Shown here one piece after another: positions 39,001 to 42,000 of a stretch of 64,000 nt of DNA. A program made the position numbers. The first letter of the stretch is position 1. Each line of letters opens with the position of its first letter. The DNA is taken from the NCBI RefSeq assembly GCF_057098645.1, contig NZ_CM169472.1. One strand, given 5' to 3'.

Positions 39001-42000
39001 CCGGGGTTGACCGCCACCATGGCAACCTTCAGCGAGCTTAATGGTGTGGATGATGATATTGCCAGTCTTGATATCAGCGAAACAGGACGGGAGATCCTGC
39101 GCTATCATCAACTCACACTGACGACTGGTTATGACGGTAGCTACCGGGTTGAAGGTACAGTGCTTAACCAACGTTTGTGTTTATTTCACTGGCTACGACG
39201 TGGTTTCCGTCTGTGTCCGTCATTTATTACCAGCCAATTCACCCCCGCCCTGAAGAGTGAACTGAAGCGGCGCGGAATTGCGCGTAACTTTTACGACGAT
39301 ACCAATCTACAAGCGTTAGTGAATCTCTGCTCCCGACGGCTGCAAAAACGCTTTGAATCGCGCGATATTCATTTCCTGTGTCTGTATCTGCAATATTGTT
39401 TGCTGCAGCACCACGCTGGAATTACGCCTCAGTTTAATCCGCTCCAACGTCGCTGGGCGGAATCCTGCCTTGAATTTCAGGTAGCACAGGAAATTGGACG
39501 CCACTGGCAGCGTCGGGCGCTCCAGCCTGTACCACCTGATGAGCCACTGTTTATGGCACTACTTTTTTCCATGTTGCGGGTTCCCGATCCATTGCGGGAT
39601 GCGCATCAGCGGGACAGACAATTGCGTCAGTCTATCAAACGTCTGGTAAACCATTTTCGTGAGCTGGGAAATGTTCGTTTTTATGATGAACAGGGGTTAT
39701 GTGATCAGCTTTATACCCACCTCGCCCAGGCGTTAAATCGCAGTTTGTTTGCCATCGGTATTGATAATACCCTACCGGAAGAGTTCGCCAGACTGTATCC
39801 ACGCCTGGTACGCACCACCCGCGCGGCGCTGGCCGGATTTGAAAGTGAATACGGCGTCCATCTTTCTGATGAGGAAAGTGGTCTGGTCGCGGTGATTTTC
39901 GGTGCCTGGCTAATGCAGGAAAACGATCTGCATGAAAAACAGATTATTCTACTGACCGGGAATGATAGCGAGCGAGAAGCGCAGATTGAGCAGCAGTTAC
40001 GCGAACTAACGTTACTGCCGCTCAACATTAAACATATGTCGGTAAAGGCATTTTTGCAGACAGGCGCTCCGCGTGGCGCGGCACTGATTATTGCTCCTTA
40101 TACCATGCCGTTACCGCTCTTTTCACCACCGCTGATCTATACGGACCTGACACTGACAACACATCAACAGGAGCAGATCCGCAAAATGCTCGAATCAGCA
40201 TGAGGGAACAACTTTCGGGCGCAAAAACATTGCCGGAAGCGCCACCAGCGCCATCACCCAGAACACGCCGTGGCCCAGATATTGATACAGGAAACCGGCG
40301 AAAACGGTCATGATAGCGATACTGCCGCCCATCGCGACGGCAGAGTAAACCGCCTGTAAACGGATGACTTCGCTACCCTGGCGAGCGGCAATATAGCGCA
40401 TGGCGGCCAGGTGGCAGACCGTGAAGGTGCCGCAATGCAGAATTTGCACCACTATCAACCACGGCAACGCCGTAGTTGCTCCCATAATGCCCCAGCGCAC
40501 TACGCCGCAAATCGCCGAGATCAACAGCATATCGCGTGCACTACAACGGCGGAAAAGTTTATTACTCAGTGCAAAGATAATGACTTCCGCCACCACGCCC
40601 AGCGACCACAAATACCCCACCGCCGAGGCCGAGTAGCCAGCTGCCTGCCAGTAAATGGCGCTAAAACCGTAATAGGCTGCATGCGCCCCCTGCAATAAAC
40701 AAACGCAGGCCAGAAAGCGCCAGTTCTGGCGAACCAGCGCCAACCACGCTGACCAACCGGTGCTCTCCTGTTGGCGGCTTGCCCCTTGTGGCTGAATCGT
40801 CGGACGGATGAGAAAGCCGAGCAGCATGGATGCCACGCCCAACGTCAACAGCACGAGGATCACCCGATAATCAAACATAGTGACCAGTTTGCCCGTCAGC
40901 GCCGAGCCAATGACAAACGCCACCGAGCCCCACAGTCGCACTTTGCCGTAATCAAGCGGGAACTGCTTTTGCCACGTATTCGCCAGTGCATCGGTCAACG
41001 GTACCAGCGGTGAGAAAAAGAGGTTAAAGCCAATCATCACCAGCATCAGCCACGCTACGTGCGCCCCCGCCCAGAAGGCGACAGCAAAGAGAAGTGTCAG
41101 CAGTGCCAGCACGCGCAAGGCGGAAATCAGGCGAGAAGGATCGCTGACGCGGGGCGCGATGAGCAAACTCCCGAGAAAACGGGCAACCAGACCTGCCCCC
41201 AATAACAGGCCGATGGTTTCTGGCGTTAAACCAATCCCTTTAAGCCAGACGCTCCAGAAAGGTAGAAAAATGCCGTAACTAAAAAAGTATGTGAAATAGC
41301 CGAGCGCCAACCAGCGCGTGGATTGCAAAACCATGAGTCCCTCCCGTCAGGAGGCGTTAGTCTGGAGTTAATCGAATGTTGGTGCAAGTTGAAAAATAAG
41401 AATATTCGAGCCTGCTTCCCGATGTCTGTAACGCCAGTTCACAAGCACTCAAAAACTGCGATCCGTGACGCATGTTGCAAAGATAATGCGTAATTATGCC
41501 GTTACGCTTGCCAAACGTTCCTGCACAATGGCGATGAAATCGCGTAATGCCGGCTTCATCTCCCCTTTCTTCCACGCCATCAGTAAAGCAATGGAAGGCA
41601 CATTTCCGGCAATGGGACGAAAAACAACCTGCCCTGTATTAAAATTATTCATATAACCGGGTATCAAAGTGACGCCCAGCCCCATGCCCACCAGATTCAT
41701 GGTCACCAGAATATTCGTTGCCACCTGGACGATATTTGGCTGGCTGTTTTCTTGTGCAAACCACGCTTTAACGATCGGCGCAAGCGAACCGGAATACGCC
41801 GGATCGGTACTGACGAAATTCACGCCATCCAGTTGCGCGGCGGTGATCTCTTTTTCATGTGCTAAAGGGTGATCAACCGGTAACACCACCACTAATGGTT
41901 CGTCAAAAAGCTCCAGATAATCAATCTCCGGGCTATAAACAGGATGGCGCATTAAGCCGACGTCGAGTTCACCACGGCGAATTTTTTCCTCCTGTTGCGT

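What the first reader, a model, noticed from the sequence alone, without database searches (positions are those of the whole stretch)
40195..40203. Convergent 3'-end overlap of csiE and hcaT
csiE (plus) and hcaT (minus) share 9 bp including both stop codons, leaving no room for separate terminators, so transcription of one probably reads into the other.
Basis: seen in the sequence. Interest (0 to 1): 0.2.

Follow-up and report, generated by a model that had tools for sequence, protein, structure and literature searches.

The report
csiE–hcaT tail-to-tail 9-bp gene overlap
Two well-known E. coli genes on opposite strands really do share their last 9 bases. This is an ordinary, already annotated arrangement, and published data show that csiE transcripts run about 47 bases into hcaT.

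Summary
csiE (+, 38923-40203) and hcaT (-, 41334-40195) overlap by 9 bp (TCAGCATGA, 40195-40203). Each TGA stop lies opposite a TCA serine codon of the other gene. RefSeq annotates the same overlap. The 50-bp junction is identical in 5240 of 5423 complete E. coli genomes.

The inferred read-through is supported in one direction. Published Term-seq places the csiE mRNA 3' end at window 40250, 47 nt inside hcaT, in stationary-phase cells only. A 2025 RNA-seq survey lists csiE-hcaT as a convergent excludon. I found no intrinsic or conserved terminator hairpin on either strand. C-rich, G-poor stretches a few hundred nt past each stop fit Rho-dependent clean-up, but that is inference.

One result may be new, though minor. 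The spacer-less junction is ancient: 74 of 78 Enterobacteriaceae species have a gap of 0 or less. The common values are -4, -6, 0 and -9. It persists in relatives whose CsiE is only 40-51% identical. The only two real spacers are REP-like insertions.

The hca catabolic genes sit next to hcaT only in E. coli-type genomes and one Citrobacter. I found no evidence that the overlap has a regulatory role. Verdict: real, ordinary and already known, of low interest.

The parts
38923..40203 (+). csiE CDS (426 aa, PRD-domain stationary-phase-inducible protein); stop TGA at 40201-40203
   Evidence: ORF list. RefSeq annotation with identical coordinates in locus L084. NCBIfam equivalog NF008597 at 777 bits and Pfam PRD. 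The C-terminus ...IRKMLES(A) is conserved in 19 orthologues.
40195..41334 (-). hcaT CDS (379 aa, MFS_1_like transporter); stop TGA is the reverse complement of 40195-40197
   Evidence: ORF list. RefSeq annotation. NCBIfam NF008346 and TIGR00902, Pfam PF12832. Orthologues are 75-97% identical in 78 species. They are conserved up to ...LRPKV and then carry a variable tail of 3-10 residues.
40195..40203 (.). 9-bp shared segment TCAGCATGA, codon-aligned on both strands (phase 123:321); each TGA stop is opposite a TCA Ser codon of the other gene
   Evidence: Read directly from the sequence. The same segment occurs in E. albertii, E. whittamii and another Escherichia lineage. In the E. ruysiae-like locus L005 a TAA insertion removes the overlap, giving gap 0.
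40204..40250 (+). csiE 3' UTR, antisense to hcaT codons; the published Term-seq 3' end (MG1655 2666762) maps to 40250
   Evidence: Adams et al. 2021, supplementary file 1, sheet LB 2.0. The 61-nt string places the end at its 51st base. No U-tract follows and the local fold is not more stable than shuffles (z -0.1 to -0.3).
40438..40658 (+). C-rich, G-poor stretch on the csiE read-through RNA (C/G 1.6-2.1, about the top 5% of the window); candidate Rho-utilisation region
   Evidence: 78-nt sliding C/G ratio compared with the window background. Inference only.
39831..39947 (-). C-rich, G-poor stretch on the hcaT read-through RNA (C/G 1.6-2.0), reached after about 140 nt of G-rich RNA; candidate Rho-utilisation region
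   Evidence: 78-nt sliding C/G ratio. Inference only.
40222..40249 (-). Weak terminator-like hairpin plus T-run inside the last 18 codons of hcaT; judged a chance match
   Evidence: Consensus scan: a 5-pair stem, and 8 hits in the region against 4.2 +/- 2.2 expected. The T-run encodes Phe-Leu and is absent in other genera.

Best explanation
This is a genuine but ordinary tail-to-tail overlap of two real genes. It is the Escherichia-specific form of an ancient junction between csiE and hcaT that has no spacer. In this family the two stop codons have abutted or interlocked since before the genera diverged. Point mutations and 3-nt indels shift the geometry between 0, -4 (TTAA/TTAG/CTAA/CTAG), -6 (TCATAA/TCATGA) and -9 (TCA-NNN-TGA). 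The overlap costs little. It covers the last one or two residues of CsiE and the non-conserved tail of HcaT. With no intergenic DNA and no embedded intrinsic terminator, RNA polymerase leaving either gene enters the other gene antisense. csiE transcripts, made in stationary phase, have a mapped 3' end 47 nt inside hcaT. Polymerases that continue are untranslated and meet C-rich, G-poor RNA within a few hundred nt, so Rho most likely stops them. The same is inferred for hcaT transcripts entering csiE. Shown: the overlap, its conservation, the lack of terminator hairpins and the csiE 3' end. Inferred: Rho dependence, read-through from hcaT, and the view that the arrangement persists because a lost spacer returns only by insertion, not because it is selected for regulation.
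For: The overlap is seen in the sequence and in the annotation. Both proteins match their family models over the full length.

The CsiE C-terminus is conserved to ...MLES plus or minus one residue, whereas the HcaT tail after LRPKV varies in length and sequence.

In 78 species-level loci the gap distribution is -4 in 33, -6 in 19, 0 in 10 and -9 in 8, with single cases of -14, -17, -22, -77, +2 and +3. The only real spacers (+38, +89) are REP-like palindromes.

The junction persists where CsiE is only 51% identical (-7) or 40% identical (-4).

No terminator-like site lies downstream of either stop. Local folds are not better than shuffles. There is no conserved structure in 31-species alignments of either strand, with consensus energies of -0.25 and -1.27 kcal/mol.

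Term-seq places the csiE 3' end at 40250, in the LB OD 2.0 sample only. The pair is listed in the MG1655 excludome.

C/G ratios of 1.6-2.1 occur downstream of both stops.
Against: Rho dependence is untested. The terms csiE and hcaT occur only in supplementary file 1 of Adams et al., so no bicyclomycin-sensitive read-through is recorded for this site. That absence may simply reflect low expression in the condition tested.

The mapped 3' end at +47 lies upstream of the strongly C-rich stretch, so it could be a processed end or a pause site rather than the termination point.

No 3' end is recorded for hcaT.

Neutral persistence is argued from the REP insertions and the labile geometry. It was not compared with a matched set of other convergent pairs. 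ExcludonFinder reports that excludon pairs in general keep their gene order more often than controls, which could reflect selection.
Confidence: 0.72

Rival explanations
1. The spacer-less convergent architecture is maintained by selection as an excludon. Stationary-phase induction of csiE sends polymerases and antisense RNA into hcaT, or the reverse happens. The two genes are then expressed reciprocally through transcriptional interference and RNase III cleavage of the RNA duplex.
For: csiE-hcaT is in the published MG1655 convergent excludome. That paper reports higher conservation of gene order for excludon pairs than for controls. The junction is conserved in 76 of 78 species and down to 40% CsiE identity. 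The mscL-arfA pair shows that a convergent 3' overlap in E. coli can be regulatory.
Against: With overlapping CDSs, transcript overlap is unavoidable, so listing as an excludon says nothing about function. The p19 dsRNA data show duplex RNA only over the 5' half of csiE (window 38926-39589) and none at the 3' junction, and hcaT is not mentioned in the stored parts of those files. Two lineages tolerate REP insertions that separate the genes. One Escherichia lineage lost the overlap through a 3-nt insertion. The mapped csiE 3' end reaches only 47 nt into a 1140-nt gene.
Confidence: 0.12
2. Termination at this junction is achieved mainly by head-on collisions between converging RNA polymerases, as proposed for bidirectional termination between convergent E. 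coli genes.
For: A general mechanism has been described for convergent pairs (bioRxiv 10.1101/2022.10.23.513370). The genes are convergent with no spacer.
Against: That mechanism needs a stem-loop in the nascent RNA to position the collisions, and none is found or conserved here. The csiE 3' end is seen only in stationary phase at a modest read count of 1664, and no hcaT 3' end is detected. Both genes therefore appear weakly transcribed, so simultaneous convergent polymerases should be rare.
Confidence: 0.05
3. An intrinsic, possibly bidirectional, terminator is embedded in the coding sequence near the junction and ends both transcripts.
For: A terminator-like hairpin with a T-run lies on the minus strand at 40249-40222. 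A modest plus-strand hairpin (40212-40239) precedes the csiE 3' end. In E. coli, 20% of genes in convergent overlaps have predicted intrinsic terminators.
Against: The minus-strand site lies upstream of the hcaT stop, so it would truncate the mRNA. Its stem has only 5 pairs, and such hits are close to the shuffle expectation (8 found against 4.2 +/- 2.2). The plus-strand hairpin has no U-tract and folds no better than shuffles (z -0.09 to -0.29). Neither is conserved across 31 species.
Confidence: 0.04
4. The overlap is an annotation artefact, and one of the two proteins really ends earlier.
For: None beyond the general possibility. The HcaT tail after LRPKV is not conserved.
Against: Stop codons are fixed by the reading frame, and there is no earlier in-frame stop in either gene. 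Orthologue lengths and family models reach to within 1-3 residues of both ends.
Confidence: 0.01

Closest known systems
Short convergent (tail-to-tail) CDS overlaps in prokaryotes (Lillo & Krakauer 2007, PMC2174442; 58 cases in E. coli)
   Same: Two independently conserved genes on opposite strands interlock at their stop codons. The origin is explicable by stop-codon mutation and small indels. Most such genes lack a predicted intrinsic terminator.
   Different: The modal form is a 4-bp tetramer (TTAA, TTAG, CTAA or CTAG), which is what most other genera have at this junction. E. coli has a codon-aligned 9-bp form, TCA-GCA-TGA.
Convergent excludons (Sesto et al. 2013 concept; ExcludonFinder 2025, PMC12288877)
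   Same: The 3' ends of the transcripts overlap, and the pair is explicitly listed in the MG1655 excludome.
   Different: The defining functional outcome is reciprocal expression through interference or RNase III, and it has not been shown for this pair. Published p19 dsRNA clusters do not cover the junction.
mscL-arfA convergent pair of Enterobacterales (PMC10070815)
   Same: A tail-to-tail arrangement enriched in Enterobacterales. The CDSs overlap in some species, and the 3' UTR is complementary to the neighbour's 3' CDS.
   Different: For mscL-arfA the intergenic distance varies widely (overlap, proximal, distal) and antisense regulation was demonstrated by experiment. For csiE-hcaT the distance is almost invariant at about 0 and no regulation has been tested.
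Bidirectional intrinsic terminators and programmed RNAP collisions between convergent genes (Ju et al. 2019, from my own knowledge; Wang et al. 2022 preprint)
   Same: Convergent genes share their termination zone.
   Different: Those systems rely on a stem-loop between the gene ends. Here there is no intergenic DNA and no significant or conserved stem-loop.

Membership tests
Convergent overlapping CDS pair | Both ORFs are real, conserved protein-coding genes | tested here: met
   CsiE matches NF008597 at 777 bits and Pfam PRD. HcaT matches NF008346 at 624 bits and Pfam PF12832. Orthologues of both occur in 78 species.
Convergent overlapping CDS pair | Each stop codon lies within the other gene's coding sequence | tested here: met
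   The csiE stop is at 40201-03 and the hcaT stop at 40195-97 (reverse complement), giving a 9-bp overlap.
Convergent overlapping CDS pair | The ends agree with orthologue C-termini, so they are not mis-called | tested here: met
   CsiE ends ...MLES plus or minus one residue in 19 orthologues. HcaT tails of 3-10 residues follow LRPKV in all loci. The family models are covered to within 1-3 positions.
Excludon (convergent) | Transcripts of the two genes overlap | tested here: met
   This rests on published data, not new experiments. The Term-seq csiE 3' end lies 47 nt inside hcaT. The pair is listed in the ExcludonFinder excludome.
Excludon (convergent) | dsRNA or RNase III products arise from the overlap region | tested here: inconclusive
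   The p19 supplement shows clusters only at window 38926-39589 (the 5' half of csiE) and none at 40195-40250. The stored files are truncated and expression is low.
Excludon (convergent) | Reciprocal, mutually exclusive expression of the two genes | not testable with these tools
   This needs expression measurements in promoter or terminator mutants.
Bidirectional intrinsic terminator | A G+C-rich hairpin flanked by an A-tract and a U-tract downstream of both stops | tested here: not met
   No terminator-like site lies downstream of either stop. Fold z-scores range from +0.5 to -1.2.
Bidirectional intrinsic terminator | The structure is conserved or covaries in orthologous junctions | tested here: not met
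   RNAalifold on 31 species gave -0.25 kcal/mol for the plus strand and -1.27 kcal/mol for the minus strand, with 4-5 trivial pairs.
Rho-dependent termination of untranslated read-through | A C-rich, G-poor RNA stretch downstream of the stop codon | tested here: met
   C/G is 1.6-2.1 at +235..+455 after csiE and 1.6-2.0 at +248..+364 after hcaT. The window's 95th percentile is 1.67.
Rho-dependent termination of untranslated read-through | Read-through increases when Rho is inhibited (bicyclomycin) | not testable with these tools
   The Adams et al. supplements mention csiE and hcaT only in the file of curated 3' ends, supplementary file 1.

The most novel reading that the evidence does not exclude
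The near-invariant zero-spacer junction may be a selected regulatory coupling between csiE and hcaT. It is kept from Escherichia to relatives with only 40% CsiE identity, and it is independent of the hca catabolic genes. On this reading, HcaT would be the functional partner of the PRD-domain protein CsiE rather than a dedicated 3-phenylpropionate transporter. Stationary-phase csiE transcription would then tune hcaT by antisense read-through.
Probability: 0.08. Interest if true: 0.4.

Novelty: already known. Interest (0 to 1): 0.1.

Why it matters
The biological importance is small. The overlap is one of dozens of convergent CDS overlaps in E. coli. It is already in the reference annotation, in a published Term-seq table and in a published excludon list.

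Its practical value is as a caution for people who make mutants. The original Keio csiE primer removes the 3' end of hcaT and its last transmembrane helix (PMC9431181). Phenotypes assigned to csiE or hcaT deletions should therefore be checked for damage to the neighbour.

The comparative result is a tidy example of how a lost spacer stays lost while the exact overlap drifts between -4, -6, -9 and 0. It also shows that hcaT has been linked to csiE for longer than to the hca operon. That weakens the adjacency-based argument that HcaT is a dedicated 3-phenylpropionate transporter.

Tried and rejected
Rfam, permissive scan of 38000-42500: only a meaningless snoRNA hit (E 0.53).

Terminator scan: no site downstream of either stop. 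The minus-strand hit at 40249-40222 was rejected as chance because it lies upstream of the stop, is weak and is not conserved.

Single-sequence folds of both strands: not better than shuffles.

Alignment folds over 31 species: no structure.

Supplements: none are held as text for ExcludonFinder or Dar & Sorek 2018. The SMRT-Cappable-seq supplements do not mention csiE or hcaT. The SEnd-seq paper (Ju et al. 2019) is not held.

p19 dsRNA data: checked for a duplex at the junction. Duplex RNA was found only over the 5' half of csiE.

Apparent deletion of hcaB-yphE: this belongs to the reference strain RM9872, not the window. The window diverges from RM9872 after 45142.

Apparent 106-nt spacer in locus L086: this comes from a frameshift in hcaT, and the true overlap there is 7 nt.

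I did not build a matched control set of other convergent pairs, so neutral versus selected persistence is argued rather than tested.

Full report
**What is in the sequence.** The window is E. coli chromosome. Bases 39700-40700 are 99.9% identical to strain O145 RM9872 and are present in 5424 of 5426 complete E. coli genomes.

At 40186-40206 the plus strand reads ATG CTC GAA TCA GCA TGA ggg. csiE (38923-40203, 426 aa) therefore ends Ser-Ala-stop. On the other strand hcaT (41334-40195, 379 aa) ends Pro-Ser-Cys-stop, and its TGA is the reverse complement of csiE's TCA serine codon. The shared segment is 40195-40203, 9 bp, with codons aligned on both strands.

RefSeq annotates exactly this overlap in the E. 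coli records inspected. Both proteins match their curated equivalog models almost to the last residue and carry the expected Pfam domains, PRD for CsiE and MFS_1_like for HcaT.

The 50-bp junction is identical in 5240 of 5423 E. coli genomes. A variant strain with one mismatch keeps the same overlap.

**Where the ends come from.** In an alignment of 19 CsiE orthologues (61-90% identity), the C-terminus is conserved through ...IRKMLES and then stops, give or take one residue. The csiE stop is therefore at its ancestral position. HcaT is conserved up to ...LRPKV, followed by a tail of 3-10 residues that varies in length and sequence. The overlap thus covers dispensable tail residues of HcaT and the last one or two residues of CsiE.

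**Comparative picture.** A scan of one genome per species with a CsiE alignment returned 80 Enterobacteriaceae loci. In 78 of them an hcaT orthologue (75-97% identity) lies convergent and immediately downstream of csiE. Of the other two, one contig ends too early and one has no hit.

The distance between the stops is -4 in 33 species, -6 in 19, 0 in 10 and -9 in 8. Single cases show -14, -17, -22, -77, +2, +3, +38 and +89.

- The -4 class is the classic tetramer TTAA, TTAG, CTAA or CTAG.
- The -6 class is TCATAA, TCATAG or TCATGA.
- The -9 class has a 3-nt insert between these (TCA-NNN-TGA). It occurs in Escherichia, Citrobacter amalonaticus, Pseudenterobacter and Intestinirhabdus.
- One Escherichia lineage (L005) has a TAA inserted before the TCA, which removes the overlap.
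- Kosakonia cowanii has lost the csiE stop, which gives a 77-nt overlap.
- The only two real spacers are REP-like palindromic hairpins with fold z-scores of -3.0 and -4.8.

More distant relatives were found through a representative-protein search. They show the same junction at 51% CsiE identity (overlap 7 nt once a frameshift in hcaT is allowed for) and at 40% identity (overlap 4 nt). A 34%-identical CsiE faces glyA across 105 nt with no hcaT. A 38%-identical one is followed by a hairpin with a T-run.

So the absence of a spacer is ancient and stable, while the exact overlap is labile.

**Transcription.** A consensus scan finds no terminator-like site downstream of either stop. The one nearby hit (minus strand, 40249-40222) is upstream of the hcaT stop, weak, and not conserved. 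Folding 50-141-nt segments of either strand gives energies no better than shuffled controls. RNAalifold on 31 species finds essentially no consensus structure after either stop.

Published Term-seq (Adams et al. 2021, PMC7815308) lists one 3' end here: MG1655 2666762, plus strand, classed as primary for csiE and antisense to hcaT. It appears only in the LB OD600 2.0 sheet. The accompanying 61-nt string, whose register I checked against the sgrS terminator row, places the end at window 40250. That is 47 nt past the csiE stop and inside hcaT codons. Detection only in the late-growth sample agrees with csiE being induced in stationary phase by sigma-S and cAMP-CRP (my own knowledge: Marschall & Hengge-Aronis 1995). 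No hcaT 3' end is listed.

ExcludonFinder (PMC12288877) lists csiE-hcaT among 165 convergent transcript overlaps present in at least half of 58 MG1655 RNA-seq data sets.

Past each stop the read-through RNA becomes C-rich and G-poor. C/G reaches 1.6-2.1 at +235 to +455 after csiE. After hcaT there is first a G-rich 140 nt, then C/G of 1.6-2.0 at +248 to +364. The window's 95th percentile is 1.67. This is what Rho needs on untranslated RNA. Rho-dependent clean-up is therefore the most likely fate of polymerases that pass the junction, but this step is inference.

**Is the overlap functional?** I see no positive evidence. Transcript overlap is unavoidable when the CDSs overlap, so membership of the excludon list is not a functional result. 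The p19 dsRNA data set (PMC7373196) shows duplex RNA over the 5' half of csiE (window 38926-39589). This is linked to antisense start sites at 39046, 39424 and 39623, not to the 3' junction. REP insertions and a 3-nt insertion that separate the genes are tolerated in some lineages.

The simplest account is that a spacer, once lost, can return only by insertion, and that any rearrangement at the junction would damage a gene. The arrangement then persists without selection for regulation. I did not test this against a control set of other spacer-less convergent pairs. ExcludonFinder's finding that excludon pairs keep their gene order more often leaves some room for selection, so I give the regulatory reading about 0.1.

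**Comparison with known cases.** This is one of about 58 convergent CDS overlaps in E. coli, and only 20% of the genes involved have a predicted intrinsic terminator (PMC2174442). It resembles the mscL-arfA pair in geometry, but that pair has variable spacing and demonstrated antisense regulation. It does not fit the bidirectional-terminator or programmed-collision model, which needs a stem-loop between the genes.

**Verdict.** The overlap is real, correctly described, and already annotated and published. Interest is low. Two by-products are worth recording. hcaT is an old neighbour of csiE (ancestral order suhB-csiE-hcaT-glyA), and the hca genes joined it only in E. coli-type genomes and one Citrobacter. 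Deletion designs for either gene must respect the shared bases, as the Keio csiE primer error illustrates.

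Noticed in passing
window 41494-43881 (hcaR, hcaE); loci L004-L083, L086, L090: hcaR and hcaE lie next to hcaT only in E. coli-type loci (L001, L002, L007) and Citrobacter sp. 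wls619 (L019). More than 70 other species keep csiE-hcaT without them. In distant relatives the order is trmJ-suhB-csiE-hcaT-glyA-hmp. The link between hcaT and csiE is therefore older than its link to the hca operon, which questions naming HcaT a 3-phenylpropionate transporter from adjacency alone.
   Followed up: partly
window 38926-39589 (5' half of csiE), minus-strand starts at 39046, 39424, 39623: Published p19-captured dsRNA clusters and antisense transcription start sites (PMC7373196 supplements) cover the 5' half of csiE. They suggest internal antisense RNAs unrelated to the hcaT junction.
   Followed up: partly
L060:5237-5325 and L061:5237-5274: The only two species with a real csiE-hcaT spacer are Dryocola boscaweniae (+89) and Cedecea sulfonylureivorans (+38). 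Both carry REP-like palindromic hairpins there (fold z -4.8 and -3.0). The spacers are secondary insertions.
   Followed up: yes
L063:5278-5338; also L057, L040, L082: Kosakonia cowanii has lost the normal csiE stop, so CsiE gains 19 residues and the overlap grows to 77 nt. Overlaps of 22, 17 and 14 nt occur in three other species. Longer overlaps are evidently tolerated.
   Followed up: partly
window 37878-38732 (yfhR): yfhR, between suhB and csiE, is found upstream of csiE only in Escherichia loci and two others (L041, L057). In most genera it is absent from the 4 kb upstream, so it looks like a lineage-specific insertion.
   Followed up: no
window 38902-38922: The csiE ORF has an in-frame ATG 21 nt upstream, which would give 433 aa. 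Orthologues and the annotation start at MMPTL (38923).
   Followed up: partly
window 40195-40203 and the hcaT 3' end: The Keio collection's original csiE reverse primer maps downstream of the target and truncates hcaT, removing its last transmembrane helix. Both the correct and the incorrect mutants appear to be in the library (PMC9431181).
   Followed up: yes
L003:2996-3669 (E. coli EC77): This strain has a deletion that fuses a 3' remnant of hcaT to a remnant of hcaE, both annotated as pseudogenes. The junction with csiE stays intact.
   Followed up: no
L086:4284-5413 and L087: hcaT in this metagenomic relative (CsiE 51% identical) is split into two reading frames near residue 314-320. It is either a pseudogene or an assembly error, and it made the gene caller report a false 106-nt spacer.
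   Followed up: partly
window 1-9100 and 45143-50000 versus NZ_CP028379.1: The window is collinear with O145 strain RM9872 only between about 9.1 kb and 45,142. RM9872 has a truncated hcaB abutting yphE where the window sequence continues differently, and the sinH region upstream also differs.
   Followed up: no
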